DNA of 64,000 bases from the human T2T-CHM13v2.0 reference genome, Homo sapiens. The position numbers were made by a program, and so were the translations under genes. A model generated the notes under the pieces. That model made no database searches, was not told the origin of the DNA, and saw only the letters and a program-made list of their open reading frames with translations. The stretch is taken from contig CP086569.2 of assembly GCA_009914755.4 (NCBI GenBank), forward strand, positions 6,560,001 through 6,624,000, in the 5' to 3' direction. Positions 2,439 through 37,756 of the stretch are shown here, piece by piece (position 1 is the stretch's first letter; the number at the start of each line of letters is the position of its first letter).

Positions 2439-3100
2439 TCCCAGCCTCCTCTTCAGTTCCTACACCCCAGCTCCTGGCTTTTACGCCAGTTTGTCCCTAA
2501 GAATTTCTGGCTCTTTTTCTGGGAGGTGTTTTGCAAAGGGGGGAGCCTCTGCCTGTCCCCTTTTTCGAGATGGGAAATGACAACTGGGGTGTCTTCTAAG
2601 ACGATTTTGACGGAGATACACCCTCGGACAGGTGACGGGAGTTCCGTGGGGGCAGAGGGCGGCTTCCTTTTTCGGTTGGGGGAAGGCAACAGTCTAGCAG
2701 TGGCCCAGGTTCCCCTCGCCCACCCTCGGCATAGGGGAGGGGCCGGTTCGCAGTTCCCCACCCTCCTTAGGGGAAGGGCTGGTTCCGGATCTAAACCACT
2801 GGGGCGCTGGAGCTGGGGCTGGTGGGAGGCGGGTTTCCCTCAGCTGGCTGTTGGGGAGGGGCGGGCCGCGGCGAGTGGGTGCCCTCTCGCTCTCAGTCCT
2901 CCCGGTCCGCGTTTGCATGCTAGCGGCCGCTCCCAGTGGTGGTCACCGCCAGTGCCAATCCCTTGCGCCGCCGTGCAGTCCCGCCCTCTGTCGCTGCAGC
3001 CGCCGCGCCCGCTCCAGTGCCCCCAATTCGCGCTCGGGAGTGAGGAGCCGCCAACACCCCAGCTCCGCTGCTGCCGCCACCGCAGTGCTCTCTAGTCGCC

Positions 3101-3105
3101 ATTGG
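3101..3105 (-). promoter_or_regulatory. Inverted CCAAT box (ATTGG; NF-Y type)
   Basis: gccattggttacc inside the CpG island, about 200 bp upstream of the strong donor at 3311, as is typical of TATA-less CpG promoters. Confidence 0.45.
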
Positions 3106-3310
3106 TTACCTAAACTTTCCAGTACCCGCGACCTTTCCGGGACTCCGCGGCGGCGGGGCAGAGGCGGCCCAGGGGCGGCACGCGGCTGCTCCGGTGCGCC
3201 GGGCTCTTTTCGGCCGCCGCACGGCCGGGCCTCACAGGCTGCCCTCCTGAGAGAGGCTCAGAACACGGCCAGGTACGCGCCGCCGCCACAGTTGCGCTGC
3301 TAGCGACGAG

Positions 3311-3316
3311 GTGAGT
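3311..3316 (+). other. Candidate 5' splice donor (GACGAG|GTGAGT); putative exon 1 ends at 3310
   Basis: gctgctagcgacgag|gtgagtgctag is a near-perfect donor consensus. The ~200 bp upstream contains no ATG, so the putative exon 1 would be noncoding. Confidence 0.4.
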
Positions 3317-4440
3317 GCTAGGTGTTTGGTGGGCCGGGCGCGGGGTCCGCAAACTTTTGCGTACGGCGCTGACTCCCTGCGGTCCTGCCGGCGGCTCCGG
3401 CCGTCCAGACGCTCCGCTCGCCACGAACTCCTGGAGACGCAGGGCCCCAGCTGTTACCGCAGCACTTGGACTAGGGTGCGGAGCGCTCCCTGGACTCAAC
3501 AATACCGGGAGGTTTCCGCTCCCCCAAAGTGCGTGCGCGCCGTGTGGGGAGTGTACGGAGGTTGGCGGGAGACGCTCCTTTGGGGAAGGGGGAGGCGGCT
3601 GCTAAGTTTAGGAAAGTACTCGGTTTCTTCCTGGTGCCCCTTTGTTTGCCGCTCTTGGGATCTGCTGGGCCCAGCGCCACTGCTGGTGGGCGGAAGGGGC
3701 AGGTGGCGGGATTTTTCACGCCCCGGTGGAGGGGAGTCCCTTTCATCCACGGGACTCGGGCCGGCCTGCCCCGACCTGGGTGGAAGCGCAGTCGCGCAGA
3801 GCGGGGCGACCGGCTGGCTAGGCGGCTCGGGCCCGCGGCGTCTGCTCAGTTTCTGAGTCGCAAAACCGTCAAGGAATTCGGAAGCTCCCCTCCCCCGCCC
3901 ATCTCTCTGGCCCCAGCGCGCAGTCAAGTCTGGGGGCAACCCCCCCCGCGCCCCCGGTCTGTTTGGGGTCTGCAGAGCGGCGCCAGGGTAAAGCGCAGAC
4001 CTGTTGATCCTAGGTTCTGGCGGGTCGGGGTCTGGCAGATCCTGGGTCCGGCCTTGCTTCCCAGTGGTACCTTCTCTCACGGAGGGGGCGGGGCCGTCCG
4101 CTTTCGGGAGTCAGTGATCGCCGGATATGTGACAACTGTGGGTCGTTGGAGTCCCGCCGGCGCTGGGCTAGGGCCTGGACTTCACGTACATCGACTGTGC
4201 GTGGTCATGCCGGAGGCAGGGGCTCACTCATTGCACCGACCTCATGTTGCTGTAGCAAGCTAAGTGCGTCGAAAATTCCACAAAGTTAGGGACCGATGTG
4301 ATTATTTTCGAATCGGTGGTGTTCTGGAGCAAAACCTAGTAAGAAACAAAATCCCACCCTCTGTTTTATTTGCAACTGTTTTGCATGGTCATGAGTGGCT
4401 TGACCTGCCTTCTAGGTGTTTTCCTCTGCTGGCACGCCAG

Positions 4441-4876: not shown

Positions 4877-5198
<322 letters not shown>

Positions 5199-14176: not shown

Positions 14177-15693
14177 CTTTTTTTGAGATGGAGTCTCACT
14201 CTGTCACCTGGAGGGCAATGGTGCTGTGTCCGGAATTGGTGGCTTCTTGGTTTCATTGACATCAAGGATGAAGCCGTGCACCCTCACGGTGACTGTTACA
14301 GTTCTTAACGATGGTGTGTCCGGAGTTTGTTTCTTCAGATGTTCAGATGTGTCCGGAGTTTCTCCCTTCTGGTGGGTTTGTGGTCTCGCTGACTTCAGGA
14401 GTGAAACTGCAGACCTTCATGGTGTTAAACAGCTCTTAAAGGCAGCACGTGTGGAGTTGTTCCTTCTGGTGGGTTCTTGGTCTTGCTGGCCTCAGGAGTG
14501 AAGCTGCAGACCTTCATGGTGAGTGTTACAGCTCATAAGGGCGGTGTGGACCCAAAGAGTGAGTAGCAGCAAGATCTACTGCAAAGAGCAAAAGAACAAA
14601 GGTTCCATAGCACCGAAGGGGACCTGAGCAGGTTGCTGCTGCTGGCTATCTGGCCCCACCCACATCCTACTGATTGGTCCGTTTTGCAGAAAGCCAATTG
14701 GTCTGTTTTGACAAGGTGCTGATTGGTGGGTTTACAATCCTTTAGCTAGACACAAAAGTTCTCCAAGTCCCCACTAGATTAGTCAGACCCAGAGTGCTGA
14801 TTGATGCATTTATTTACAAACCTTTAGGTAGACAGAGTGCTGTTTGGTGCGTTTACAGTCCTTTAGCTAGACACAAAAATTCTCCAAGTCCCCACTAGAT
14901 TAGCTAGACACAGAGCGCTGATTGGTGCGTTTACAAACCTTCAGGTAGACACAGAGTGCTTGGTGCGTTTACAAACCTCTAGTTAGACACAGAGTGCTGA
15001 TTGGTGTGTTTACACAATCCTTTAGCTAGAAAGAAAAGTTCTCCAAGTCCCCACCCATCCCAGAAGCCCAGTCAGGTTCACCTCTCACTGGCACGTGCTG
15101 CAGGACTCTGTGGCACCCAGCCCGGGCACTCCGGCAGCCCAGAGGGAGCCTACTCCCCCGACGAAGCCCGGCAGGTGCCGGCCAGCTGCGCCAAGTGCGG
15201 GGCCGCGGAGGCCACAGCCCACCCAGAACGCGCGCAGGCCGAGACCGCGCGCAGCCCCGGCTCCCGCCCACGCTTTTACCTCCACATCTCCCCAGGAGCA
15301 GAGGTAGCCGGCTCCGGCCTCCGCTAGTTCCAGAGAGGGGCCCCCACAGTGCAGCAGGGGGCTGAAGGGCTCCTTGAGCGTGGCCAGAGTGGACGCCTAG
15401 GCAGAGGAGGCACCGAGAGCAAGCGAGGGCTGCTAGCATGTAGCCACCCCTCAGTGCGATCTCAGCTCACTGCAGCCTCCACCGCCTGGGTTCAAGCAAT
15501 TCTTCTGTCCCAGCCTCCTGAGTAGCTGAGATTACAGGTGTGTGCCACCATGCCTGGCTAATTTTTGTGTTTCTAGTAGAGATGGGGTTTCATCATGCTA
15601 GCCAGGTTGGTCTCAAACTTCTGACCTCACGTGATCTGCCTGCCTTGGCCTCTCAAAGTGCTGGGATTACAGGTGTGAGCCACCGCGCCCGGC
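14177..15693 (-). repeat. Alu element split by a nested LTR12 insertion (Alu parts 14177-14224 and 15454-15693)
   Basis: The Alu 3' part (ttttttgagatggagtctcactctgtcacc...gcaatggtgc) and the Alu 5' part (cagtgcgatctcagctcactgcagcc...caccgcgcccggc) are separated by the LTR12. A 17-bp TSD (tgtgaatgKgcagtatt) flanks the composite at 14160-14176 and 15695-15711, showing it was a single Alu insertion. Confidence 0.8.
14225..15453 (+). mobile_element. Solo LTR12 (HERV9 LTR), copy 1, with CpG-rich 3' portion
   Basis: Starts tgtgtccgg and ends ...ccacccctca (TG...CA). It has the 5' repeats ...tggtgggttYgtggtctcgctgacttcaggagtgaa... and the tandem gctgattggtgcgtttacaaaccttYagctagacacagag U3 repeats containing ATTGG/CCAAT that are characteristic of LTR12. 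These are followed by a ~375-bp CpG-rich segment. A 4-bp TSD GTGC flanks it (14221-14224 and 15454-15457). Confidence 0.8.
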
Positions 15694-15851
15694 TGTGAAT
15701 GGGCAGTATTATTCAATGCTGCAAGCATTTTTGCTTGGCTGAATTGCCTGATAGATAGGAATTTGGAGAAAAAGAAGTTTACGTATATATGTGGTGGCAC
15801 TTTATTTCTTACATCAGTAATAAATCATTTATTTACTTTTATTTTTTATTT

Positions 15852-16145
15852 ATTTTTTTGAGACAGAGTCTTGCTCTGTCGCCCAGGCTGGACTGCAGTA
15901 GTGCGTTCTTGGATCTTCACTTACTATAAGCTCTGCCTCCCAGGTTCATGCCATTCTCCTGCCTCAGCCTCCTGAGTAGCTGGGACTACAGGCACCTGCC
16001 ACCATGCCTGGCTAATCTGTATTTTTAGTGGAGACGGGGTTTCACCGTGTTAGCCTGGATGGTCGTGATCTCCTGACCTAGTGATCCACCCCCCTCAGCC
16101 TTCCAAAGTGCTGGGATTACAGGCGTAAGCCACCACGCTGGGCCT
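15852..16145 (-). repeat. Alu element
   Basis: tttttgagacagagtcttgctctgtcgcccaggctggactgcag... through ...aagccaccacgctgggcc. Confidence 0.85.
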
Positions 16146-16169
16146 ATAACAAACGATTTACTTATCTAT

Positions 16170-16444
16170 TTTTAGAGACAGGCCCTGTTACTCAGGCTGA
16201 AGTGCAGTGGGGCAATCACAGTTCATTGTGGCCTCAACTTCCAGGGCTCAACTGATACTCCTCAAAGTAGCTGAGACCACATATGCATGCCACTATGCCC
16301 TGCTTTAAAAAAAAAAATTCTTAATTTTTGTAGAGACAGGTCTTGCTGTATTGCCTAGGTTAGCCTCGAACCCCTGAACTCAAACAGTCTTCCTGCTTTG
16401 GCCTCCCAAAGTGCTGACATTACAAGTGTGAGCTGCCACACTTG
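16170..16444 (-). repeat. Alu element (older, diverged)
   Basis: tagagacaggccctgttactcaggctgaagtgcagtggggcaatcac... with many substitutions. Confidence 0.7.
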
Positions 16445-16634
16445 GACAACAAATACTTTAATATAGTGATACCATATAAACTCATTTTAAGAACTGGAGA
16501 AAAATTCAGTAGGACTGAGCCATGATTTCCATTTCTGGTGCACTGTGGGTGATACTTAGTGTGAACCTGGACACCTGTGCTCCTTCAGTTGTTCATATAT
16601 CTTGTCATCCATGGGAAGATGAGAAGTGAAGTTG

Positions 16635-16951
16635 GGCCAGGTGCGGTGGCTCACGCCTGTAATTCCAGCACTTTGGGAGGCTGAGGCGGGCGGATCACGA
16701 GGTCAGGAGATTGAGACCATCCTGGCTAACACGGTGAAACCCCGTCTTACTAAAAATACAAAAAAATTAGCTGGGCGTGATGGCGGACGCCTGTAGTCCC
16801 AGCTACTCAGGAGGCTGAGGCAGGAGAATGGCGTGAACCCAGGAGATAAAGCTTTCAGTGAGCCGAGATTGCACCACTACACTCCAGTCTGGGCGACAGA
16901 GTGAGACTCTGTCTCAAAAAAAAAAAAAAAAAAGAAAGAAAGAAAAGAAAA
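16635..16951 (+). repeat. Alu element with A-tail
   Basis: ggccaggtgcggtggctcacgcctgtaattccagcactttgggaggctgaggcgggcggatcacgaggtcaggag... ending in a poly-A/(GAAA)n tail. Confidence 0.9.
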
Positions 16952-17614
16952 AGTTGAGTGGAGTTCTGTCATCAGAGTCTGCCATGCAAAAATTGGTAGT
17001 GCCAGTATGCAAACGTAATTCCCAGCTGCCATAAAAGTCCAGGTGGCTTCACAGTTTTTGATTGTATTTTCTAAAAGCAGCTGAATAGGGAATTGAAGTC
17101 CCTGCCATTTGGTTCATTTGGGGGTCAGAATAAACTTGGGTCCTTGCCTTCAAATCTTTCAAGAGAATCTTATCATGCATTCTAGTTCTATACAATTGTA
17201 ATGCCAGCTCCATGTAGATAAAAACTCAAGAATTCAAAATTATAAACTTGAAAATGGCAATTGCCAAGTTCTGTCAGTCACACATCAGTCTGGGAGACAT
17301 GATTTGGTTTAATTCCCATTTTGATTTTGGAAAAAAGTCACATTTGGCTTGCTTTGTTTCACCAAGACACACTGGTGGTTCTGTCCCAATTTCAGCCACT
17401 TCCAGTGATCTGTATTAGGATACTTCAAAAACCCTAACCAGAAGAGGCAATCTTTGAGGTGCACCCAGCTCAGAAGCTGGTGAAAATAAGAATGATTAAT
17501 CTCTTCTGGGCAGTACATGACAGAAATTATCATAGACCATATGAGAACAGGGAGAGAAACTTGTGGGTATTACATGTCATGCTGTGCTCTGATAAAAAGA
17601 AGGTTGTGGATATT

Positions 17615-18270
<656 letters not shown>

Positions 18271-18951
18271 GCTGTGCTCTGATAAATTTCATGGGACTCA
18301 GTATGATTTCTTTAAGTTGGTAGTCTCCAAATTTGGGGAAAGGACAGGGACAGAAATGACTTGCCTCAGGTTTTAATTCTTGAAAGTGTCTCCCAGGTGA
18401 GTTTTATGCCCTCTGGCAGGTGCACAGCAAGATTTATTGGTGTGCAGGGAGAAACTATGAAAATGCTCTCTAAAAATATCCAACAGTTGCAAAAAATACA
18501 TATTTTCTTTGAAAACATACATATGATATTAGTTGAGTATTTTATATATTTAATAAATAAATTACATGACTTAGCAGCACCTGCTTAAAACTTTGACTGA
18601 TAAGGTTACACACACATGAAAAAGATCACTGATGTAGGTCCCCAAAGGCTAGAAGAGAGGGTGATACTAAAGTCCCTGGATGCAGGTGGGACACAGTTGT
18701 ACTCCCGTTTCCTTTGGCTTTAGCTGCTCAGGTATGTGTGAGCTTGCGTGTGCATGTATGTGCACTAAGTAACTTTGATATCCACCAGCTTAAAGATCAG
18801 GCATTGCTCCAGAGAAGTACAGATATTAGTGATTTGACTTATTGAAGAAAGAACATGGAGTGACAGGACTGCACTTTTTGGATCTGGTGTATTCTGTATG
18901 TTGTTTTCTTAAATTTTATTTATGTATTTATTTAACTAATTTATTTATTTT

Positions 18952-19228
18952 GAAATGGAGTCTTGCTCTGTTGCCCAGGCTGCAGTGCAGTGTGTAATCT
19001 CAGCTCTCTGCAACCTCTGCCTCCCGGGTTCAAGCAATTCTCCTGCCTTAGCTTCCCCAGTAGCTGGGACTACAGGTACATGCTACCATGCCTGGCTAAT
19101 TTTTGTATTTTTGGGAGAGACGGATTCACCATGTTGGCAAGGTTGGTCTTGATCTCCTGACCTTGTGGTTCATCTGCCTAGACCTCTCAAAGTGCTGGGA
19201 TTACAGATGTGAGTCGCCGTGTCTGGCC
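18952..19228 (-). repeat. Alu element
   Basis: gaaatggagtcttgctctgttgcccaggctgcagtgcagtg... through ...gtgagtcgccgtgtctggcc. Confidence 0.85.
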
Positions 19229-19265
19229 TATTATTTTTTATTTTTTTGTTTTCCAAATTATGTAT

Positions 19266-19556
19266 TTTCTTTTTTTCAAGACAGAGTTTTGCCTTGTTGC
19301 TGAAGCTGGAGTGCAGCAGCACTATCTAGACTCACTGCAACCTCTGCCTCCTGGGTTCAAGTGATTGTTTTGCCTCATCCTCCCAAGTAGGTGGGACTAC
19401 AGGTGTGCCACCACGCCCAGCTAATTTTTATATTTTTAGTAGAGACAGGGTTTCACCGTTCTGGCCAGGCTGGTCTCAAATTCCTGACCTTGTGATCTGC
19501 CCGTTTTGGCCTCCTAAAATGCTGGGATTATAGACATGACCCACTGTGCCCAGCCT
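19266..19556 (-). repeat. Alu element
   Basis: Reverse-complement Alu consensus with a T-rich head. Confidence 0.85.
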
Positions 19557-19852
19557 TTTTTTATATTTTGAAACAGAGTTTCACTCTTATTGCGTAGGCT
19601 GGAGTGCAACGGCATGGTCTTGGGTCACTGAAACTTCTGCCTCCCAGGTTCAAGGGATTCTCCTACCATAGCCTCCCAAGTAGCTGGGATTACAGGTGTG
19701 CACCACCACAACACGTCGAGGTAATTTTTTGTATTTTTATTAGAGATGGGGTCTCACCATGTTGGCCGGTGTTGAACTCCTGACCTCAGTTGATCACCCG
19801 CCTTGGCCCCACAAAGTGCTGGAATTACAGGTGTGAGGCACTGCACCTGGCC
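19557..19852 (-). repeat. Alu element
   Basis: Reverse-complement Alu consensus. It directly abuts the previous Alu, making three head-to-tail minus-strand Alus at 18952-19852. Confidence 0.85.
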
Positions 19853-22809
19853 TGCGTGTTGTTTTAAAGCTGAAAAAATATGTTTTAGAACTAGATGACA
19901 GTATCTTGTTTGCTGGTGCATGAGGAAATCTTGGAAAAATGCTAAGCATTTTATGACTCTCCAGTGTTTTCATAATCTGTAATTCTGTTTATAAATCAGT
20001 CACTTTCATTGAAAGGTGCTGTTGGTGTTGTGGAGAGTTAGACATTTTGCTGCAGAGATGGTTGACTTTAAAAGATAGCAACATGAAATAGTGCCAGAAA
20101 TGGGTTGTTATAAAAGTTCTTGTATGCCTTAAATCTGGCTTTTTTTTTTCCAGACACGTATTTCGTCTGTTGTGGTTATTGTTAACAGTTTTGTTTTTGC
20201 ATTTCACATTAGAGTTTTTTTTTGTTGTTGTTGTTGAGAAAATTGTCATTTGGTTGCTGCTACGTTACTGGTGTTACAGAGTGAATAAATGTAGAAATTA
20301 CACACAGGATTCAGACCACATTATGGGTTGTGGAGGTGAGAAATAGGACTCACCGCCAAACTTAAGGTCTTTTGGCTGAGCCCATTTGCTGAGAATAGCT
20401 GAAGATTTGGTTTTCATCAGGCTAAATGCCAGCCAACTTCAAGTAGTTCCAGGTTTCCAGATCAGATTTTTAGTTTGTTTAACTTTTAGTTTAACTGAGA
20501 GGATTGACATACCAGCTTTTGTTTTTATGTATTATTTTTGGGGTTTGCATCTATTTTCTCCTTTGTGAATAATGCATTTGCAGTGTAACTTTGTTATATG
20601 AAATGATGCTTATATACTGGTGCAGTGCATTAAAAAGCCTACAGGGAACAATACTTGTAGATTTGTATGTATTGATGTCACAGGTTCCTTGGGGTGTTGC
20701 TTTGCCCGAGGAAAACCTTTGTGGGAGGTGGTGCCTTCTGCCTTAGTTTTGCTCAGGCCTGCTGGGTTCATTCCACCCACTTGGCCTGGGAGGCTGTACT
20801 TGGCTTGTGCTACTGGCCTGGATCCCATGCCTGCCAAGGGTGAGCCAGGCACAGGGCACTGGGGTGTCTGTGTGAATGTGGGGTGCTGGCTCCGTGTGAG
20901 ACTGTGGCTAGACCAGATGTACCACATGTGGCTTTTGTTGTGGGCGTCTGCATCTGGACAAGGAGAACGTGGTGGCACCCAGAAGATTGGAGACATGAGG
21001 AACTGCAGAAAGCCAAAGAGGGTATCACAGCCCTGGCTTGGGTATCCCACTTTGAAAATCCACAACTCATCTCTCCTCATTGCCTGCAACATGGTAAACA
21101 GGGAGGGAGGGGTGTGTTTTAGCCCTGTTTGTGTTACAGATCTTTCAGTCCCACCATTTGGTGGGTCCTGAGTTCTTATCCCACATCCAGGAAGAATGTG
21201 GTACGTAGACAGTTGGTAGGGGAGCAAGGTGGAGAGAAGCTTCATTGAACAACAGAACAGCTCTCAGGAGACCTAAAGTGGGTAACTCCTTTCCACAGGC
21301 AGGTCATCCTAAAGTCTAGCTGATACTGGCTGAGTCCGGAGTTTTTATGGTCTCAGAAGAGAGGAAGTGTGTGCTCATTGATCCATGGGGTCCATGAATG
21401 TACCCAAAGAAAGCACCATAAGCTCTGACTTCTGGCCACAGACTCCACCCCGAACTGGCAGCCTGGTCCCCAGGCTTCAGGCCATCCCTGGCCTGAAGGT
21501 GGGATTTCACCAGGAACCCACCCTTTCCTGCCTAGGAACCTATCTGCCTCCCATGTCCATCAACATGCTGTCCATGGTGCCTAGGCTGTCCAAGCTGAGG
21601 GGTGCCTGCAAGCCTGCACTGAGCTACCCTTGGCCTTCCAGCCTCCTTCTTGTGCTCATCAGTGCCCAAAGTCTGGAGGGGGTCAAGGTGGCAAAGGCTG
21701 AGCATGTCAGTGTTGCCTCAAGTGTGTACACACCCAGCTGGGTCACAACAGCACTCAGGCTTGGCTTCAACTTTGCTCTGAAATTGGAGCAGGTGCTGGG
21801 ATTGGGGAGAGGCCAGGCAGCATGATCAGGCACTTCTGAGCCTGTGGGGGCAGTGCCTTCCTGGGCCCCTGAGAGTAGTGGTATGCCCGGGTACAACTGT
21901 GGCTGGGTGGTTGCAGCTGCACCTAGAAGGGTGGGCCTCTGTGTTCCCAGCTCCTGATGGGAACACTATGGAGTGTGCGGCCTCAGCCAGGCCTGCCCTG
22001 CTTCAGCTAGCATTTTCCAAGCAGCTGCTCCAGATGGGCCGCCGCTACCATCACCAACAGGATAACGCATAGCTGAGCATGGTTCATGCTCATCTTTTGC
22101 TAAAGTGAAATATTTATGTCTACTTTTCTTTAAAAAAAACCCTGTTACTTCTCTTTATAGTAATACTTCATTGTTCACTGTAAAGAGAAAGTAGAATTTT
22201 TAAGTATCTCGTTTCATGCACCTGTCTCCACTCTCCAGAGACCAGTGCATTTAGGTCCCCATAAGACCGTTATAATAAAGTGTAAATAAAGCAAATGCAG
22301 AGTATATTTGGGGACATACTTTGTATGCCCCCACAGCCCCACCCTTATAAGAGAAAAGAGATGGCATAATGTATTTTGCGTTTAGCCAGATGCTTTGAGA
22401 TTTACACAGGTGACTTCATATTGCAAGCAGGTCAGTGGAAAACCACTGAATTGCTTCAGCTGTGAACTAGAATCCTCTCCTGTCTCTGTTGTTGGGTGAC
22501 AACACTCGTAATTATTCATTTGCTTATTTGCCAGCCAAATCACCATATGTAGTATCTCAAAAGTGTATCTCACAGAATGACCCTAAGCAGGTTGACCTCT
22601 GAAGCCTGCACCAGAGTTGACTTTATTTCCTAAGTGATGACTTTATTTCCTGTGCTTGTGAAGGGCAACTGTCTAGGTAGAGTTTCTGGGTGTTTGAGGT
22701 GCAAGAGGTACTTAAGGAAATGAATAATAAGGCCAAATGGTAAAAGCCCCAGGGACATGGAATCTCTGAATATGCTAACCTCCAGAGAAACTATGAAAAC
22801 AAATTAGTT

Positions 22810-23757
<948 letters not shown>

Positions 23758-24805
23758 TTATGGCATTGTTGAATTACTATCTATATAATTTATATCAGTG
23801 ACAGCAGTAACTTCTCATTAGGAAAATAGGCTTACTAAAATTAGCAGCTTTCATCTTTATACGGAAATCAATTTTAGCTGGAATAATTGTATGCGAAGCT
23901 TTATAATTGGAAATTTGAAGTCAGCAAAATTACTTTAGTTACGTTAGTGTACTCAAACAAAATGTAGAATAAGATTAGTTCATGGGAACATTTCATTTTT
24001 ATCTCAGTCAGCACTGGTCATACCCACCCAGTAGTTAGATAGTTTCTAGTTAAATTTTGTAATTTTTTGAACATCCTGGACATGTTTTACAAAATTAGAA
24101 ACACTAGTTGCAAAAAGAGGTTGTATGTTTTAATTATTTCCCAGTTCATCTTTAACTGCAATAAAAACACAGGGTAAGTTGTCCTTTTTGAATTTTCTTT
24201 TCTTTACGTGTCTGGCAAACAGAGGACCAAGCCTGGGGATCATTAATCTGCTTTTTCTGCGTGATGTTGTAAGGGAAGTTTGGGCTGGATTCATAGTTTG
24301 CTGTCTAAAAGTAAATGTTCAGCCTTTTCTAGTTCCCTGTTTTATTTACTTTTCCATTCAATGTCCTATATTTGGACAACAAATAAATTTTTCTGATGGG
24401 TTTCTGTTGGCCCGGATGTTCATCCCAGTGGAAATTCTTTCCTTCCACACCACTGGGTTGGGAAGTGTTTGCTGGTATTTGGCTTTCTGTATCTCCTGGA
24501 GTTGTCTTAGATACATTGTGTATTCAGGTTGGGCAGTCATTCCCTTTGCAAGCTCTGTGTTACTTTGTTTCATTTGGCTTTGCCGTAAATGTTTGCCCTT
24601 GGCTTGCCAAGATGTCAGCTTGTGATGTTTCATTTAACTTAGAATTATTGAGCCTGACCTAAAATTAAATGTTTTCTTAAACATTGTTAATTGAGATATA
24701 AGTGACATAGAAGTCACCTCTTTGAGGTGTATCATTCAATGAGTTTTAGTAAATTTACTTGGTTTTGTAGACATCACCATAATCTAGTTTTAGAACATTT
24801 TCTTT

Positions 24806-25100
24806 CTTGTTTTGTTTTGAGACAAGAGTCTCACTCTGTCGCCCAGGCTGGAGAGCAGTGGTGTGATCTTGGCTCATTGCAGCCTCCACTTCCAGGTTCA
24901 AGCCATTCTCCTGTCTCAGCCTCCTGAGTAGCTGGGATTATGGGCATATGCCACCACACCCGGCTAATTTTTGTATTTTTAGTCGAGATGGGGTTTCACC
25001 GTATTGGCCAGGCTGGTCTTGAACTCCTGATTTCAGGTGGTCTCCCTGCCTCGGCCACCCAAAGTGCTGGTATTACAGGCCTGAGCCACCATGCCAGGCC
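24806..25100 (-). repeat. Alu element
   Basis: Reverse-complement Alu consensus, flanked by a 16-bp TSD agttttagaacatttt (24784-24799 and 25101-25116). Confidence 0.9.
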
Positions 25101-25118
25101 AGTTTTAGAACATTTTGA

Positions 25119-25600
<482 letters not shown>

Positions 25601-27064
25601 TGAGACCTGACTTAGTCACTTTGCCTCGCACTCTCCTCACCAGGAAGGGTAGGTGGGGAAAGGGGAAAGAAGGCAAGTATAATAGCCTAATGGGCATTCC
25701 ACCTCAGTTTTCTCATCTGTAAAATCAGGATAATGATGGACTTTTTGCAGGCTCTAAATGTGAAATCCCATGGGAAGTAATTAGCTGGAAATGTGGCATA
25801 CTGAGGGAGCTCATTGTTTTTGTGTTAACAGTAGGAAATGCTGCATAAAGAAGGTGGGAAATGAGCTACCTGTAGAAAGATGGCCTAAGTCCCTGGAAAG
25901 CTGAGGGCACACACCCCTTATGCTGCCCCTGTCTTTCATCGTGAAAGAACCTGCCTGTGAACCTCATGCTTGGAGGGAAGCTGGATGTTGGCCCAGGATA
26001 TACCTTTGCTGTGTTGTCCTCAATCCAGGGCAGAAAGCTCCCAATGTACAGGTTGATTATTATAAAGGAAGAAGGTGTGTTCTTGGAATGTAATGGGTAG
26101 AGGCCAGCAATGGCCTCCTTCAATACAGAGGATGGTCCCCTCCTCTGCCAACAAAGAGTTATCCAGCTCCAAAAGGTCAGCACTGGGGAGGTTAAGAAAT
26201 CTGGCCTTAGAAGTTTTGCACCTGCTGATAGCTGTAAATGAGGTACTTACATTCTCCATAATGAAGTTGAAGGAATAAAAATCCCATGGAGCTTATGAAA
26301 GAAATACAAGTGTCTTTTAGTCTGCATATATTCCGTGGAAATAGGGAATATTCCATGGAAATAGGGATTTCCCTCTAAAGCAAAAATGATAAGACTTTCA
26401 AGCTTGAGTTTTGAAGGAAAAAAAAAAAGACTTTCAAACCTGTTAGAAGCATTCATTTACCAGTGAAAAGTAAAATGTTTTGTAGGCAGAGAAACCATGA
26501 CCGTCCCTTGGCTTCAATCTGATGGTCATGTTCATCTGTGTCTGTTCCCTGAATAACGAGTGTCCACACCTGCCCCCCTTCTCTACTTAATACTTATTAG
26601 TGAGTGCTAACTCTCCTCCTTTCCTGCCTGGCTGGGCCTTTTTCTCCTTCTCCCCTGAAGCTTGCTGCATCTGCTTTCCTCCCTCTCATTAGCTTTGATT
26701 TGTGCTCCTAGGTATCTTTTTGCCTGCCCCAAGCTCATTTTCCCCAACCACGCTCCACTCCCAGGTGATAGCTAATTGTATACTTATTTCAAAGAATCCA
26801 AGCACTGTAGAGTTCTTTCCTTCCTTATCTAGCAGAATCACCAGTTCTGTCTAGAGGGCAACATTATGGATTTTTCTCTACCACTTTCAACTGTCCATAC
26901 ACAAATATGTAGTCTGCTGTTTTTATCTAAATGGACTGTTATTAGTTTCACTCTGTCTGCTTTCCATATTTTTGTATCTTGATGGAGGTATATTGAAATA
27001 CAGTAAGCTAGACATTAAGGTAGAGTTTAGCCCATCTTTTCTTTCTTTTTTGGTATATTATTCA

Positions 27065-27482
27065 TAGAGATGGGGTCTCACTCTTGTCCAGGTTGATGTC
27101 AAACTCCTGGGCTGAAGCAGTCCTCCCACCTTGGCCTCCCAGGGTGCTGGGATTACTGGTGTAAGCCACCACACCCAATCCTTTTTTTTTCCTTTTTATA
27201 TCAAGATCTTGCTTTGTTACCAGGCTGGAGCCCAGTGGCACAGTCCTGCAGCCTTTGCCTCAACCCTTGTGATCGAGCGATCCTACCACCTCAGCCTCCC
27301 AAGTAGCTGGGACTAAATGCATGCCACTATACTTGGCTAATTTTCTTTTCTTTTCTTTTTCTTTTTTTTTTTGGTAGAGAAGGTTTTTTTCCAAATTGCC
27401 CAGGCTGCTGGTCTTGGACTCCTAGACTTAAGGGAGATCCTCCTGCCTCAAGCACCTCCCAAAGTGTTGGGATTATAGGTGT
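27065..27482 (-). repeat. Cluster of three partial Alu/FLAM-like monomer fragments
   Basis: 27065-27180, 27183-27345 and 27360-27482 each carry ...cctcccaRRgtgctgggattacWggtg... segments plus T-rich heads. All three are truncated. Confidence 0.6.
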
Positions 27483-27974
27483 CACATTTTTTCATCCATA
27501 TGTAGACACAAATATTTGTGAAACCAGCACCACAATCAAAGAATATTTCTGTCACTCTGCAAAGTTTACTTGTGCCTTTTTATAATGTCGCTCCCCATCT
27601 CTGTACCCCTTTCCCTAGACAGCCATTGTTGGGTGTTCTGTGACTATAGAATAGTTTGCATTTTCTGCACCTTGACGTTACTGAAATTGTACTCATTATT
27701 TTGCCTGGCATCTTTCCCTCAGCATCATGATTTTGGTGCTTCATGTTGTTGCACGTGTCACTAACCCATTCCTCTGTATTACTGGGTAGGATTCCATCCT
27801 TTATGCATGCACCTTGGTTTGTTTATTGTTGGATGTTTGGGTTGTTACCTTGTTTTTTATTGTGACAATTGTGAATAATGCTGCTGTAAATGTTTATGTG
27901 GCTGTCCAGTGGTTCTCAAACTTCATTATGCATCAGAACCACTTGCAGAACTTGTTAAAACACAGAGTACAGTG

Positions 27975-28245
27975 CAGTGCCATGGTTCATGCCTTGAATC
28001 CTGTCAGTTTGGGAGGTTGAAGGTCGATTGCTCAAGACCATCCTTCACAACATAGGGACACCTCAGCTCTAAAAAATCACTGAGTGTGGTGGTGCATGAG
28101 CCTGTAGCCCCAGCTATTTGGAGGCTAAGACAGGAGGCCCTTGAGCCCAGGAGGTTGAGACTACAGTGTGCCATGATTGTGCCACTGCAGTCCTACTGGG
28201 GTGACAGAGCGAGATTCTGTCTCAGAACAAAAAATGAAATAAACA
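27975..28245 (+). repeat. Alu element (older, diverged)
   Basis: gcagtgccatggttcatgccttgaatcctgtcagtttgggaggttgaagg...gtgacagagcgagattctgtctcag. Confidence 0.75.
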
Positions 28246-29616
28246 GAACACCAACTAAAACACTGAATCCCAATTCCCAATCCCAGTTTGTGATTCAGTG
28301 AATGAGGGGCGTGTCTATGACACTGCCTTTCTAAGGAGCTCCCAGTTGACACCCATGGTAATGGTCCAAGGACCGCACCGACTTTGAGGGCTGCTGCCTT
28401 AAAGGAAGTCTTATATAAATTGTGGTAGTTTTTCCTTTGCTGGTTGTTCCAGATATTTCTCTCCTACACTGTTCCAAGAATAACTCAGGGTAGGTGGCTT
28501 GGGTGCTGATGTGTGTGAAACACAAGCCATGACATTCCTCCAAATAGGTGTCAGCCATCGTTGGGCCAAATTGTACCCTCTCTCTGCTGTGGATGCTGGC
28601 AATGGACTTCTGATGGTATGGTCAGGTGATATAGGCTTGTAGTTGTGCCTGGTTACCAGGGCATCTGAGGTGCTGCTCTGCCCCCTGGAACTTTTGGGCC
28701 AAGTATAGCTACTTACTGAGCTTGCCTTTCACAGGCAAACAAAATCCATTTTCTTCATCTCTTTGTCCTGTGAAAAACAAGGAGATCCAAGTCAGTGCAC
28801 CAAAGGAGACAATTTTGCCCTTCAGGCTTCTGATCAAACAAGGCTTGGAGCAGCTAGAATGTTAACCAGAAAATGTGTAATAACCAGTGTGTTTGTTATC
28901 ATTGTTTTGTTGTTCTTTTATTTCGGGGGAAAGATAATACTTTTGGTTCAGAGAGCAGCTTTAAGTTAGCGTGGACCCTTTTTCGCAAAAGCATTTTCTT
29001 GAATTTGATGATAAAGCCCTGCTCTTCCACTTTGCCTTTGAGCTTAATCTGCAGTTACCTCTGGTCACTGCTTCTCATCTTTGCTGTTGACCTCAGTTCT
29101 TTCCTTTCAGGTTCTTCACTTATGAGATGTGGTATGGAACGGATTCCAGGAGGATTCCAGGCTCTGTAAGGAGGCTTATCTTTTTAGGATGGTTAAATTT
29201 TAGATTTGCAGTGACTTGTAATCATTGGTTAATATCCTAGTTTCTTCTTCTCCTTTTTACTGACAGTTTTACGGAGCATACACTCAACACACTTCCCTAA
29301 AGTGTATAATTCAGGAATTTCCTAGTATATTTACAAAGTTGTGTAACAATCACCATCTAATTCTCACACATTTTCATTGCTCCCCAAAGAGACCCTACAC
29401 CCATTAAGACATTACTGCCACTTCCCCTTCTCCTGTGCTCCCTGGTAACCCTGAATCTACTTTCTGCCTTCATCGGTTTACTCCTCTGGACGTTTCACAG
29501 ATACTGTGACCTTTTGTACCTGATTGCTTCACTGCAATTATTCCTGAATTTCATACATGTTGTAGAATTTATGAAATTCTACCTTTGTGGCAGACTTTCT
29601 GTCAAAACCCTGGGTG

Positions 29617-29922
29617 GGCTGGGCACTTTGGCTCATGCCTGTAATCCCAGCACTTTGGGAGGCCGAGTCAGGTTTATCACTTGAAGTCAGAAGTTTGACA
29701 CCAGCCTGGCAAACATGGTGAAACCCTGTTTCTACTAAAAATAGAAAAATTAGCCAGGCATGGTGGCAGACGCCTATAATTTCAGTCTCGGAAGACTGAG
29801 GCAGGAGAATCACTTGAATATGGGTTGTGGAGGTTGCAGTGAGCCAAGATCATGCAGTTGTACTCCAGCCCAGGTGACAGAGTGAGACTCCATTTCATAA
29901 GAAGACACACAAACCAACCAAC
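29617..29922 (+). repeat. Alu element
   Basis: ggctgggcactttggctcatgcctgtaatcccagcactttgggaggccgag... ending in an A/C-rich tail. An 11-bp TSD aaccctgggtg sits at 29604-29614 and 29923-29933. Confidence 0.9.
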
Positions 29923-30965
29923 CAACCCTGGGTGATTAAGGAAGGCAGGATGATATTCTGAGATAAGGCAGCTGGAGACACAGGCTACCCTTCCCTCCAA
30001 TTACATTTAAAATGAAAAATCATTCACAAATGGAACATTGTTCACAAAATTGTTTATAGTTCACCTTCCATTCTAGCATGAACTGTAATTTTCTCCCTTC
30101 CCATTTTCTTTATCTCCTCCACATTTCTCCCACTTTCCTGTACCTAAAGGTCATTGTAGAAAACAATTTTGGTCAGTTAAAACTGGCCCTGCAGGTCTCT
30201 CCTGTGCTGCATCTTTTGGATGGAGTCAGAAGGTCCCTTCTTGGCATGAGAGTTAGGAAGCTTGCATTTCCCAAGGGGCTTGTGTGACATTCCCTCCAGG
30301 GCTGAGGTCATGGGATTCCCAGCAGCAAGAGTTAGGCTGTCTTCTGTGGTCTTCCCAAAGCCACAACCCTGAATGACCCACAAACATAATCATAAGGTTG
30401 TTTACTTTTTTTGAATTTATCAACCTGTTGTCTCTGTATGACCAAAATTACTGTTCCCAGGTTGGATTGGAGAAGCCAGAGGGTGATTTGTTGAAACCAT
30501 TTATGGGACACGACTTTCTGTGGCATCTGTACCTTCAACTCAAGGCTTATTGATAATACTGAAGACCGTTTTACTTTCCTGGTTGACGTTATAATTGATC
30601 ATATTAGTTTCCTGTCACTACTGTGAGAAATTACCACACACTCACTGGCTTTAACACCATTTATTATCTCAAGGTTTGGAAGGCCAGAAGTCTGAAATGA
30701 GTCTTGCTCTGCTAAAATCGAGATTTCAGCAGGGCCATGACATTTCTGGAAGCTCTAGGGGAGAATTGGCATCCTTGCTTTTTCTGGCTCCTGGAGGCTG
30801 GCGATATTCCTGGGCTTGTGGCCCTTTCTTCCATCTGCAGAGGAGCTGCATAGCACCTCTTCAACTCTCTTTCCATAGGCACATATCACTCAGACTGTAG
30901 CTGAGAAGGCTATCCACTTTTATGGGCTCCTGTGATTACATTGGGCCCACCTGGAAGATCCATAA

Positions 30966-31779
30966 TGTAGAGCTTCCTTGGTTCCTTCCAGTGGGTTCTT
31001 GGTCTCGCTGACTTCAAGAATGAAGCCATGTACCCTTGAGGTGAGTGTTAAGTTCTTAAAGATGATGTGTCCAGAGTTTGTTCCTTCAGATGTTCAGATG
31101 TGTCCAGCACTTCTTCCTTCCGGTGGGTTCGTGGTCTTGCTGACTTCAGGAGTGAAGATGCAGACCTTTGCAGAGAGTGTTACAGCTCTTAAAGCTGGCA
31201 CGTCCAGAGTTGTTTGTTCCTCCCTGTGGGTTCTTGGTCTCGCTGACCTCAGTAGTGAAGCTGCAGACCTTTGCTGTGAGTGTTACAGCTCATAAAGGTA
31301 GTGCAGACCCAAAGAGTGAGCAGCAGCAAGATTTACTGTGAAGGGCAGAAGAACAAAGCTGCCACAGCATGGAAGGGGACCCAAGTGGGTTGCCACTGCT
31401 GGCTCTGGTGGCCAGCTTTTATTCCCTGCCAACGTCCCGCTGATTGGTGCATTTTACAGAGTGCTGATTGGTCCGTTTTGCAGAATGCTGATTGGTGTGT
31501 TTTTACAGAGTGCTGATTGGTGCATTTACAAACCTTTAGCTAGACACAGAGCGCTGATTGGTGTGTTTTTACAGAGTGCTGATTGGTGTGTTTACAAACC
31601 TTTAGCTAGACACAGAGCGCTGATTGGTGCATTTTTACAGAGTGCTGATTGGTGTGTTTACAAACCTTTAGCTAGGCCCAGAGCGCTGATTGGGGCGTTT
31701 ACAATCCTCTAGCTAGATAAACAAGTTCTGCAAGTCCCCACCCTACCCAGAAGCCCAGCTGGCGTCACCACTCAATAAT
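30966..31779 (+). mobile_element. Solo LTR12-family LTR, copy 3 (short form)
   Basis: Starts tgtagagc and ends ...cccagctggcgtcaccactca. It has the 5' repeats gggttcttggtctcgctgacttcaagaatgaag... and five tandem gctgattggtg...tttagctagacacagagc U3 units. A 4-bp TSD ATAA sits at 30962-30965 and 31780-31783. Confidence 0.75.
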
Positions 31780-36345: not shown

Positions 36346-37234
36346 CTTGACAGGGTCCTGTCTTTTTCCACTCTGGTGCCCCCTTTATCCTCATGCTCAA
36401 GACTCAAAACACCAGTGGCTCAGCAGCCAGTGTGGGGGCAGAAACTTCAGTGAGGCCCCAACTTGTGCCCTTGTGGGGCAGCAAGCACAAACTCCAAACT
36501 CCTTGTTTTGAGCCTCAGACTCAAAGGGTCAAGAGTCTTTATTGGCCCCTTTGTTTTACACCAGGGTCCATAACCTATGTGTGCACCTGACTTTCTTTAG
36601 TCACTGAGGTGACTGAGTGAAGCCACAGAGGTCTCAGAATCACTTTCTAAAACAAATAAAAAATAGAATTGCAAATAATGTTATTAACAGTGCAGTTGTC
36701 AAAATATCAAAAGCAATTTGTTGAATAGTGTTTTTCTTCTTACTGTTAAAATATATGTAATATAAATTGTATTATTTTAACCATTTTTAAGTGTACAGTT
36801 CAGTAACAGTACATTCACAGTGTTGTGCAGCGAACCTCCAGAAGTCCTTCTGTCTTGTAATCCTGAAACTCCATACCTGCTACCTACTCCTTCCCCTACT
36901 TCCCCAGTCTGTGGCACCCACCATTGACTTTGTGTGTCTATGTGCTTCACAACTGTGGGACCTCAGAGAAGTGGAATCCTGCAGTATTTATCTTTTTGTG
37001 ACTGGATTATTTCACTCAGCATAGTGTTCTCCAGGTTCATCAACATGGTAGCATGTCTCAGAATGTCTTTCTTTTTTAATGCTCAGTACTATTCCATTGT
37101 ATGGATAGGTCACTTTATTCCTCTGCGGATGGTTACCTAGGTTGCTTCCACCTTTTGACTGTAATGCATAATGCTTCTGTGAACTTCCCTGCACAAATAT
37201 TTCTTTGAGATTTTGTTATAGTTGTTTAATATGT

Positions 37235-37752: not shown

Positions 37753-37756
37753 ATAA

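What the first reader, a model, noticed from the sequence alone, without database searches (positions are those of the whole stretch)
14225..31779. Three LTR12 (HERV9) solo LTRs within 17.5 kb, two nested inside Alus, downstream of the host CpG-island promoter
The three copies are at 14225-15453 (+), 22843-23469 (-) and 30966-31779 (+). All carry the tandem ATTGG/CCAAT-containing U3 repeats that make LTR12 elements NF-Y-dependent, epigenetically silenced alternative promoters. These are well documented as reactivated by HDAC/DNMT inhibition. Each has a clean 4-bp TSD (GTGC, CCAG, ATAA). Two landed inside Alus, at different Alu positions, so they are independent events. Copy 1 keeps a ~375-bp CpG-rich 3' segment. 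Copies 2 and 3 both end at ...cacctctca/caccactca and are 0.6-0.8 kb, so they may be a short subfamily or identically truncated. Plus-strand copies 1 and 3 are co-oriented with the putative host gene and could drive alternative first exons.
Basis: partly seen in the sequence, partly recalled or inferred. Interest (0 to 1): 0.5.

Follow-up and report, generated by a model that had tools for sequence, protein, structure and literature searches.

The report
Three ordinary LTR12 solo LTRs, strands misread

Summary
Confirmed: three homologous ERV9/LTR12 solo LTRs. Each has TG...CA termini and a perfect 4-bp target-site duplication (GTGC, CCAG, ATAA). Two sit inside AluS elements and one inside an MLT1-type LTR. 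All lie 10-28 kb downstream of the window's only CpG island (2701-4400).

Corrected: every strand-specific LTR12 landmark published for the family lies on the minus strand in copies 1 and 3 and on the plus strand in copy 2. These landmarks are the CCAAT/GATA/GTGGGGA U3 repeats, the Sp1 box, AATAAAA, the TSS motif GCCAGCAGTGGC and the U5 repeats.
- Its "CpG-rich 3' segment" of copy 1 is a shortened 5' extension of the kind reported for LTR12C/D/E.
- Predicted start sites are about 14.64 kb (-), 23.14 kb (+) and 31.40 kb (-), not 15.0-15.5 and 31.7 kb.
- Only copy 2 is co-oriented with the putative plus-strand host gene.
- Copies 2 and 3 are complete LTRs of extension-less subfamilies, not truncated ones.
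- Each copy departs from the LTR12C-based core promoter in at least one element.

Exact boundaries are 14225-15453, 22844-23468 and 30966-31774. One to three such clusters are expected genome-wide by chance. Subfamily calls, the host gene's identity and any transcription could not be tested here. Verdict: known repeat type, low interest.

The parts
14225..15453 (-). Copy 1: LTR12 solo LTR, 1229 bp, extension-bearing group (LTR12C/D/E-like). In LTR sense it runs from 15453 down to 14225.
   Evidence: TG...CA termini and TSD. All sense landmarks are on the minus strand. Homologous to copies 2 and 3.
15067..15453 (-). Copy 1 5' extension, 387 bp, GC 0.70, 28 CpG. In the family, this region is the ZNF676/KAP1 target.
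   Evidence: composition; aligns to positions 7-289 of a recalled LTR12C-like consensus and lacks about 330 nt of it; the extension is reported for LTR12C/D/E and is bound by ZNF676.
14662..15066 (-). Copy 1 U3 enhancer repeats: 5 CCAAT, 3 GTGGGGA and 5 GATA-type TCTGTGTCTAGCT-like motifs. The Sp1-like GGGTGGGGC follows at 14653-14661.
14631..14648 (-). Copy 1 TSS-motif context TAGCCAGCAGCAGCAACC. The motif reads GCCAGCAGCAGC, 2 mismatches from GCCAGCAGTGGC, at 66% of the LTR length. The AATAAAA box that should precede it is missing (a gap of about 24 nt).
14221..14224 (.). Copy 1 TSD GTGC, left copy. The right copy is at 15454-15457. The host is an antisense AluS (14178-14224 plus 15454-15693).
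22844..23468 (+). Copy 2: LTR12 solo LTR, 625 bp, with no 5' extension. It is the only copy whose sense strand is the window plus strand.
22875..23121 (+). Copy 2 U3: GTGGGGA at 22877, 4 CCAAT (22966, 22991, 23056, 23080), the Sp1-like GGGTGGGGC at 23096-23104 and AATAAAA at 23115-23121.
23133..23150 (+). Copy 2 TSS-motif context GAGCCAGCAGCAGCAACC. The predicted start is near 23140, directed to the plus strand.
22840..22843 (.). Copy 2 TSD CCAG, left copy. The right copy is at 23469-23472. The host is a sense AluS (22821-22843 plus 23469-23732).
30966..31774 (-). Copy 3: LTR12 solo LTR, 809 bp, with no 5' extension. Its sense strand is the minus strand.
31439..31747 (-). Copy 3 U3: 9 CCAAT boxes in 24/41/66-bp tandem units, plus GTGGGGA at 31741.
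31388..31423 (-). Copy 3 core promoter: AATAAAA (31417-31423) and a perfect GCCAGCAGTGGC (31392-31403). The Sp1 GC box upstream is lost. The predicted start is near 31398, directed to the minus strand.
30962..30965 (.). Copy 3 TSD ATAA, left copy. The right copy is at 31775-31778. The host is an MLT1-type (MaLR) LTR.
2701..4400 (+). The only CpG island in the window and the putative host promoter. It has a perfect plus-strand 5' splice site GAG|GTGAGT, with the last exon base at 3310.
   Evidence: Promoter status and gene direction are inferred, not shown.

Best explanation
These are three independent germline integrations of ERV9-group (class I, gammaretrovirus-like) proviruses into older repeats: two AluS elements and one MLT1-type LTR. 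Each later collapsed by LTR-LTR recombination to a solo LTR that still carries its own 4-bp target-site duplication.

In LTR sense, copy 1 (14225-15453) and copy 3 (30966-31774) lie on the minus strand, and copy 2 (22844-23468) lies on the plus strand. Copy 1 belongs to the extension-bearing LTR12C/D/E group, with a shortened 387-nt 5' extension. Copies 2 and 3 are complete LTRs of the extension-less group (LTR12/LTR12_/LTR12B/LTR12F type).

They sit in what is most likely the first intron of a plus-strand gene that starts at the CpG island. Two of the three, like the L1 and the HERV-K provirus further downstream, are antisense to it, which is the usual tolerated orientation.

Shown: their anatomy is that of NF-Y-dependent LTR12 promoter/enhancer modules. 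Inferred: they are latent, normally methylated and H3K9me3-silenced elements with no demonstrated role at this locus. If derepressed by HDAC or DNMT inhibitors, copy 3 would fire towards the minus strand from about 31.40 kb. It has the best-preserved core, with 9 CCAAT, AATAAAA and a perfect GCCAGCAGTGGC. Copy 2 would fire towards the plus strand from about 23.14 kb and is the only one able to give a host-sense alternative first exon. Copy 1 is the weakest promoter, because its AATAAAA box is deleted.
For: Homology and uniqueness in the window. Termini, TSDs and restored empty sites.

Strand: CCAAT, GTGGGGA, the GATA-type motif, the Sp1 box, AATAAAA and the TSS motif are found only on the minus strand in copies 1 and 3 and only on the plus strand in copy 2, in the published 5'-to-3' order (landmarks from PMC11853044). 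This is confirmed independently by the DNA search with shuffle controls. The U3 core gives 19 hits against 1.58 expected, 18 of them in the copies with strands -/+/-. The TSS context occurs once per copy against 0.02 expected.

Repeat anatomy: 38/41/66-bp U3 periods and 2-3 U5 repeat cores.

Subfamily grouping: the 5' extension is reported only for LTR12C/D/E (PMC8767690). Copy 1 has 387 nt of it, and copies 2 and 3 start exactly where it ends.

Core-promoter differences: alignment A1.

Independent sources: pairwise non-CpG K2P distances of 0.13-0.16, with different TSDs and different host repeats.

Host direction: a single CpG island with a perfect plus-strand donor at 3310 and no comparable minus-strand donor. 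The L1 and the HERV-K provirus are both on the minus strand.

Silencing and inducibility of the family.
Against: No RepeatMasker or Dfam library was available, so subfamily names are not assigned. The only full-length reference sequences used (LTR12C-like, Alu, MLT1) were recalled from memory and count as leads, not tests.

The host gene was not identified and no coding exon was found. Both 'intron 1 of a plus-strand gene' and the antisense-bias argument are therefore inferences.

No expression, methylation or ChIP data can be consulted, so the silent-by-default state and the ranking of promoter strength come from sequence alone. GCCAGCAGCAGC in copies 1 and 2 may be the ancestral state of their subfamilies rather than a lesion. 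Some LTR12 elements are reported to be bidirectional promoters, so strand does not absolutely forbid plus-strand initiation from copies 1 and 3.
Confidence: 0.88

Rival explanations
1. One reading: copies 1 and 3 are plus-strand LTR12 promoters co-oriented with the host gene. They would drive alternative first exons from about 15.0-15.5 kb and about 31.7 kb.
For: The host gene is probably on the plus strand. The LTR12 family is a documented source of alternative promoters. A minority of LTR12 copies are reported to be bidirectional.
Against: All promoter landmarks of copies 1 and 3 are on the minus strand. LTR12C-driven transcription was primarily unidirectional. ERV9 repeats in antisense orientation are not known to take part in host mRNA splicing events. 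Copy 1 also lacks AATAAAA.
Confidence: 0.02
2. Copy 2 (plus strand) is a conditional, host-sense alternative promoter. When derepressed, it would initiate near 23140 and splice from a donor in or just after the LTR to downstream host exons, giving a 5'-truncated or alternative-5'UTR isoform.
For: It has the correct orientation, an intact Sp1 box, AATAAAA 20 nt upstream of the TSS motif, and 4 CCAAT boxes. Candidate plus-strand donors lie at 23423 (8.1 bits, inside the LTR), 23489 (8.2) and 24173 (AGG|GTAAGT, 10.2). Its R-region poly(A) hexamer has decayed to AATAGA, so transcripts would not stop at the canonical site in R.
Against: It is an extension-less, non-LTR12C copy, whereas inducible TSSs are mainly in LTR12C. 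The inverted repeat GCCANNNNTGGC, reported as essential for start-site use, is broken (GCCAGCAGCAGC). It has few CCAAT boxes and only 9 CpG left. Two AATAAA hexamers on the plus strand (23115, 23452) could terminate transcripts. No downstream host exon is known.
Confidence: 0.1
3. The LTRs act as enhancers rather than promoters. Their CCAAT/GATA/GTGGGGA repeats would assemble NF-Y/GATA-2/MZF1 complexes, as at the beta-globin LCR ERV-9 LTR, and modulate the CpG-island promoter 10-28 kb away. Alternatively, the cluster acts as a local NF-Y sink.
For: There are 18 sense CCAAT boxes in the three U3 regions plus GATA-type and GTGGGGA motifs. LTR12 enhancers are documented, including truncated TSS-less copies.
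Against: Motif presence is generic to roughly 5000 family members, most of which are methylated and inactive. Nothing here distinguishes this locus, and activity is not testable with these tools.
Confidence: 0.1
4. A by-product RNA function. Copies 1 and 3 are antisense within a plus-strand pre-mRNA, so host transcription would produce antisense LTR12 U3 RNA (ATTGG repeats). This is the species reported to bind and sequester NF-Y, p53 and Sp1.
For: The review reports that antisense, but not sense, U3 RNAs bind NF-Y, p53 and Sp1, and that they most likely arise from intronic LTR12s by read-through transcription. Copies 1 and 3 together offer 14 U3 CCAAT units in that orientation.
Against: It requires that the window is really intronic to an expressed plus-strand gene, which is not shown. 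Intronic RNA is short-lived, and thousands of other loci could contribute the same RNA, so no locus-specific role follows.
Confidence: 0.08

Closest known systems
LTR12 / ERV9 (HERV9) solo LTRs, with RepeatMasker subfamilies LTR12, LTR12_, LTR12B-F; about 4000-6000 copies in the human genome
   Same: TG...CA termini and 4-bp TSDs. U3 tandem repeats of about 41 bp with CCAAT, GATA-type and GTGGGGA motifs. An Sp1 box, AATAAAA, then the TSS motif GCCAGCAGTGGC. U5 repeats. A GC-rich 5' extension in copy 1.
   Different: Nothing categorical. Copy 1's extension is 387 nt rather than about 600 nt, and copy 1 lacks AATAAAA. Copies 1 and 2 carry GCCAGCAGCAGC. Copy 3 lacks the Sp1 box. The exact subfamily is unassigned.
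LTR12C alternative promoters of host genes (GBP2, TP63, SCIN, ZFP90 and others) and HDACi/DNMTi-induced cryptic TSSs
   Same: The same family and the same promoter architecture. Location near or inside a gene.
   Different: Those are mostly LTR12C copies in sense orientation upstream of the exons they drive. Here only the extension-less copy 2 is in sense orientation. Copies 1 and 3 are antisense. No chimeric transcript is known for this locus, and none of the review's Table 1 loci has a length matching these copies.
ERV-9 LTR enhancer of the beta-globin locus control region, and the LTR12C enhancer in AXIN1
   Same: CCAAT/GATA/GTGGGGA repeat modules able to recruit NF-Y/GATA-2/MZF1. Intronic or distal position relative to a promoter.
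   Different: Those are long LTR12C copies (1.3-1.7 kb) with experimentally shown activity. Nothing has been shown here.
LTR12F enhancer next to HERV-K102 (1q22)
   Same: The window also combines short LTR12 copies with a HERV-K provirus.
   Different: In that case a truncated LTR12F lies immediately upstream of the HERV-K 5' LTR. Here the nearest LTR12 (copy 3) is about 20 kb away on the 3' side of the provirus, and there is no LTR12 upstream of it. This provirus is old and has fragmented ORFs.

Membership tests
LTR12 (ERV9 LTR) family | Retroviral LTR termini 5'-TG...CA-3' flanked directly by a short TSD (4 bp for class I, gammaretrovirus-like integrases; established knowledge) | tested here: met
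   All three copies have TG...CA termini. The TSDs GTGC, CCAG and ATAA are identical on both sides, and empty sites are restored on excision.
LTR12 (ERV9 LTR) family | U3 enhancer made of tandem units of about 41 bp carrying CCAAT (NF-Y), a GATA-type TCTGTATCTAGCT motif and GTGGGGA | tested here: met
   TRF periods of 38/41/66 bp. Sense-strand U3 CCAAT counts of 5, 4 and 9, plus the GATA-type and GTGGGGA motifs. The core motif gives 19 hits against 1.58 expected. Feature definition from PMC11853044.
LTR12 (ERV9 LTR) family | Core promoter: Sp1 box, then AATAAAA about 30 nt upstream of the TSS, then a TSS within GCCAGCAGTGGC (inverted repeat GCCANNNNTGGC) | tested here: inconclusive
   The order and strand are right in all three, but none has the complete set. 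Copy 1 has no AATAAAA and reads GCCAGCAGCAGC. Copy 2 has all the boxes but reads GCCAGCAGCAGC. Copy 3 has AATAAAA and a perfect motif but no Sp1 box. This counts as recognisable homology with decay or subfamily variation.
LTR12 (ERV9 LTR) family | U5 with a variable number of tandem repeats (B elements) | tested here: met
   Three (copy 1), two (copy 2) and three (copy 3) copies of the GAGACCAMGAACCCAC-containing unit. The spacing seen here is about 100-130 bp, not exactly the 72 bp quoted.
LTR12 (ERV9 LTR) family | Significant match to the Repbase/Dfam LTR12 consensus or HMM (RepeatMasker call) | not testable with these tools
   No repeat library is available. A recalled LTR12C-like sequence aligns to all three in the stated sense orientation (72-88% identity, E down to 0). 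This is a lead only.
LTR12C/D/E subgroup | GC-rich 5' extension of about 600 bp upstream of the U3 repeats (the ZNF676 binding region) | tested here: inconclusive
   Copy 1 has a homologous but shorter extension (387 nt, lacking about 330 nt). Copies 2 and 3 have none and begin at TGAGAGGTGAAGCC / TGAGTGGTGACGCC with a TSD abutting. So this is partly met for copy 1 and not met for copies 2 and 3. Definition from PMC8767690.
LTR12-derived alternative promoter of a host gene | LTR in sense orientation relative to the gene it drives | tested here: not met
Copy 2 does meet it.
LTR12-derived alternative promoter of a host gene | Transcription initiation at the U3/R border with reads spliced into host exons (CAGE, RNA-seq, 5' RACE) | not testable with these tools
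   No expression data are accessible. Predicted TSSs and candidate donors are listed.
HDACi/DNMTi-inducible cryptic LTR12 TSS | Membership of the LTR12C subtype, which supplies most induced TSSs, together with NF-Y binding | not tested
   Subfamily is unresolved for copy 1, and copies 2 and 3 are not of the extension-bearing type.

The most novel reading that the evidence does not exclude
With the corrected strands, copy 2 (plus, TSS about 23.14 kb) and copy 3 (minus, TSS about 31.40 kb) form a convergent promoter pair 8.3 kb apart, and copy 1 (minus, about 14.64 kb) points back at the host CpG-island promoter 10 kb away. If the cluster is co-derepressed (HDAC/DNMT inhibition, germline, early embryo, infection), it could produce overlapping sense and antisense RNA over 23-31 kb, giving dsRNA ('viral mimicry'). 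It could also produce antisense transcription into the host promoter and so cause interference. This would make the locus a compact, orientation-dependent, NF-Y-driven switch on the host gene rather than a set of alternative first exons.
Probability: 0.05. Interest if true: 0.35.

Novelty: already known. Interest (0 to 1): 0.1.

Why it matters
It matters mainly as a correction. LTR12 elements are a well-studied source of cryptic, NF-Y-dependent promoters, and their effect on a host gene depends on orientation. With the strands set right, the proposed 'two co-oriented alternative promoters' become two antisense LTRs, and one short sense LTR is the only candidate for a host-sense alternative start. 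Anyone checking CAGE, RNA-seq or NF-Y tracks should look at about 14.64 kb (-), 23.14 kb (+) and 31.40 kb (-), not at the positions originally suggested. Beyond that, the locus is an ordinary piece of primate repeat landscape. A cluster of three LTR12s in 17.5 kb is expected one to three times per genome by chance.

Tried and rejected
(1) Host-gene identification failed. I made six-frame stop-free segments of at least 45 aa with Alu and LTR12 masked. Nothing outside the L1 and ERV regions looked like a coding exon by eye. I chose not to spend the shared 13-CPU-hour homology searches, or paste roughly 25,000 residues of mostly junk into the PDB and Pfam searches, because the expected yield was low and the verdict does not depend on the gene's name.

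(2) An Rfam gathering scan of the whole window gave 0 hits, so there is no snoRNA or miRNA to identify a host gene.

(3) A literature search for LTR12 sequence strings (GCCAGCAGTGGC, AATTCCGGACACA and a longer promoter string) found no paper with a usable consensus sequence. The Repbase overview paper gives only family names.

(4) A search for a paralogue of copy 3's host repeat inside the window, to prove junction continuity, returned only poly-A/T hits. I fell back on a recalled MLT1 consensus.

(5) I compared the lengths of the review's Table 1 loci with 1229, 625 and 809 bp and found no match, so this is probably not one of the characterised loci.

(6) I considered and rejected three other readings. 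Segmental duplication or gene conversion is excluded by the different TSDs, different host repeats and K2P of 0.13-0.16. Truncation of copies 2 and 3 is excluded because the TSDs abut TG...CA ends. An arrangement like LTR12F/HERV-K102 is excluded because no LTR12 lies upstream of the HERV-K provirus.

(7) A gapless repeat search for the provirus LTRs found nothing. BLAST found only one 178-bp repeat.

Full report
**What is there.** The window is catarrhine-primate (human-like) DNA, dense in Alu elements. A self-BLAST with the three reported segments shows that they are homologous to one another and to nothing else in the 64 kb. Copies 1 and 3 share an orientation (71% identity over about 880 bp). 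Copy 2 is inverted relative to both (71-77%, locally about 84%). Exact boundaries, read from the sequence:
- Copy 1: 14225-15453 (1229 bp).
- Copy 2: 22844-23468 (625 bp).
- Copy 3: 30966-31774 (809 bp).

Each begins with TG and ends with CA, and each is flanked directly by an identical 4-bp duplication: GTGC, CCAG and ATAA. A 4-bp duplication is the size made by class I, gammaretrovirus-like integrases (established knowledge). Identical TSDs on both sides show that each solo LTR arose by recombination within one provirus.

**Empty sites.** Removing the LTR and one TSD copy restores the host repeat in each case:
- Copy 1: a continuous antisense AluS (86.9% to consensus positions 2-289).
- Copy 2: a continuous sense AluS (85.7% to positions 12-287), hit at a different Alu position.
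- Copy 3: a continuous MLT1-type MaLR LTR (83% over 162 aligned bp spanning the junction).

The Alu and MLT1 consensus sequences were recalled from memory, so those identities are approximate. Continuity across the junctions does not depend on them. The three are therefore independent insertions. This is also shown by pairwise non-CpG K2P distances of 0.13-0.16, which are too large for copies of one master within a family about 30 My old. They imply different source subfamilies (inference).

**Family membership.** The J Virol 2025 review of LTR12 (PMC11853044) lists, in 5'-to-3' order:
- An optional 5' extension of about 600 nt in LTR12C/D/E.
- U3 tandem 'E' repeats of about 41 bp with CCAAT (NF-Y), GATA-type TCTGTATCTAGCT and GTGGGGA.
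- An Sp1 site, then AATAAAA about 30 nt before the TSS.
- The TSS inside GCCAGCAGTGGC, at about 70% of an LTR12C.
- U5 'B' repeats.

All of these are recognisable in the three copies. The U3 core CACCAATCAGC (up to 1 mismatch) occurs 19 times in the window against 1.58 expected from shuffles, and 18 of the 19 fall in the three copies. The TSS context GAGCCAGCAGYRGCAACC occurs exactly once per copy against 0.02 expected. I could not run RepeatMasker or Dfam. As a lead only, an LTR12C-like consensus recalled from memory aligns to all three.

**The main correction: strand.** Every one of these strand-specific landmarks lies on the window's minus strand in copies 1 and 3 and on the plus strand in copy 2, in the published order. 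In copy 1 the TSS motif sits at 66% of the length measured from 15453 downward, matching the published figure of about 70%.
- (a) The 'about 375-bp CpG-rich 3' segment' of copy 1 (15067-15453; 387 bp, GC 0.70, 28 CpG) is the 5' extension. According to Iouranova et al. (PMC8767690), this extension is found only in LTR12C (n=2453), LTR12D (n=377) and LTR12E (n=104), and it is where ZNF676/KAP1 binds. Against the recalled LTR12C-like sequence, copy 1 keeps the first 290 nt or so and lacks about 330 nt.
- (b) The shared 'ends' ...cacctctca/caccactca of copies 2 and 3 are their 5' termini (TGAGAGGTG.../TGAGTGGTG...). These coincide with the point where the extension stops in copy 1. Because the TSDs abut these ends, copies 2 and 3 are complete LTRs of the extension-less group (LTR12/LTR12_/LTR12B/LTR12F type), not truncated ones. 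Lengths of characterised loci are consistent with this: 'LTR12' about 740 bp, LTR12D about 1026 bp, and several LTR12C copies of about 1.2 kb.
- (c) The predicted start sites are about 14.64 kb (minus), about 23.14 kb (plus) and about 31.40 kb (minus), not 15.0-15.5 kb and 31.7 kb.
- (d) Only copy 2 is co-oriented with a plus-strand host gene.

**Host context.** The window has a single CpG island (2701-4400, GC 0.66, o/e 0.81, 150 CpG). It carries a perfect plus-strand donor GAG|GTGAGT (last exon base 3310), with no comparable minus-strand donor leaving the island. No ATG-containing exon is evident and I could not identify the gene. That the LTRs lie in intron 1 of a plus-strand gene is an inference. 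It is mildly supported by the minus orientation of the other large insertions, an L1 and a HERV-K provirus, and of two of the three LTR12s. This is the usual antisense bias of intronic retroelements. In keeping with this, copies 1 and 3 present no AATAAA or ATTAAA hexamer on the plus strand. In copy 2 the canonical R-region hexamer has decayed to AATAGA, although two other AATAAA hexamers remain on the plus strand at 23115 and 23452.

**State of the promoters.** The sense alignment (A1) shows that each copy departs from the LTR12C-based core promoter in at least one element.
- **Copy 1** lacks about 24 nt including AATAAAA, which is reported as needed for efficient initiation and lies inside the -70/+6 minimal promoter. 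It reads GCCAGCAGCAGC, which breaks the inverted repeat reported as essential for start-site use.
- **Copy 2** has the Sp1 box, AATAAAA and 4 CCAAT boxes, but the same GCCAGCAGCAGC. Because copies 1 and 2 share this variant, it may be ancestral to their subfamilies rather than a lesion.
- **Copy 3** has lost the Sp1 box, but has 9 CCAAT boxes, AATAAAA and a perfect GCCAGCAGTGGC. It is the best-preserved core, and it points to the minus strand.

CpG content outside copy 1's extension is low (o/e 0.25-0.32), consistent with long-term germline methylation (family property). Candidate 5' splice sites downstream of each predicted TSS, scored with an approximate PWM, are 23423, 23489 and 24173 (+) for copy 2, 30951 (-) for copy 3 and 12592 (-) for copy 1. 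These are predictions to test, not findings.

**How it most likely works.** Shown: three independent ERV9 solo LTRs with the anatomy of NF-Y-dependent promoter/enhancer modules, oriented -, +, -. Inferred: they are fixed, largely neutral, normally silenced insertions. The rivals are:
- Copy 2 as a conditional host-sense alternative promoter.
- Orientation-independent enhancer or NF-Y-hub activity, as at the beta-globin LCR or AXIN1 LTRs.
- Production of antisense U3 RNA from copies 1 and 3 by host read-through, the RNA species reported to sequester NF-Y, p53 and Sp1.

None of these can be tested with the tools here.

**Is the cluster unusual?** With 4000-6000 LTR12 copies spread uniformly over 3.1 Gb, one to 3.4 triplets within 17.5 kb are expected genome-wide. 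The cluster is uncommon but not surprising. None of the loci in the review's Table 1 matches these lengths.

**Verdict.** What is there is a known kind of element, of the sort RepeatMasker annotates routinely. Novelty: already known. Interest: low.

Noticed in passing
window 51698-57763 (minus strand): An old, defective HERV-K-type (betaretrovirus-like) provirus. Pfam hits are HERV-K_env_2 (2e-84) plus HERV-K_REC, GP41, integrase (rve, Integrase_Zn), dUTPase plus protease, the gag zinc knuckles and p24. The ORFs are fragmented. An LTR5-like 5' terminus, TGTAGGGAAAAGAAAGAGA, at 51740 (minus strand) probably starts the 3' LTR.
   Followed up: partly
window 50331-50508 and 57966-58142; plus-strand ORFs 49730-50553: A 178-bp direct repeat (86% identity) brackets the HERV-K provirus. 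The left copy lies inside a plus-strand ORF with weak similarity to gammaretroviral env TM (TLV_coat, E=0.001, below the Pfam cut-off). The HERV-K may have inserted into, or recombined with, an older class I ERV fragment. This is unexplained.
   Followed up: partly
window about 43107-47100 (minus strand): An L1 element with ORF1 (Transposase_22, Tnp_22_dsRBD), endonuclease and RT domains. The GC-rich 46.0-47.1 kb part (GC 0.54, CpG o/e 0.29) is probably its 5' UTR. It is antisense to the putative host gene.
   Followed up: partly
window 2000-2130: A tandem duplication of a unit of about 66 bp (ctgagcttttttgttggaggatcgaccccttaaaaattcatctcgggttcccgtccccccacaac), just upstream of the CpG island.
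   Followed up: no
window about 37200-37950: A strongly strand-asymmetric CT-rich low-complexity tract (GC skew -0.49, AT skew -0.50). It translates into long S/L/F/P-rich pseudo-ORFs in several frames.
   Followed up: no
window 20600-22100: A GC-rich (0.51-0.55) but CpG-poor (o/e 0.11) non-Alu stretch with unusually long stop-free frames on both strands (up to 217 aa). It has no Pfam hit, and it is unclear whether it is an old repeat or unique sequence.
   Followed up: partly
window 23452-23457 (plus strand), inside copy 2: Near the 3' end of the sense-oriented LTR, the usual ...CCAATTCCGGACACA reads GGAATAAATCCCGGACACA. This creates an AATAAA hexamer on the host-sense strand and so a potential cryptic polyadenylation signal within the intron.
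   Followed up: no
window 4400-4500 (plus strand): A possible small alternative exon just after the CpG island: an acceptor-like ...ccttctag|gtg at about 4415 and a donor-like GTG|GTAAGT at about 4499. It was seen by eye only.
   Followed up: no
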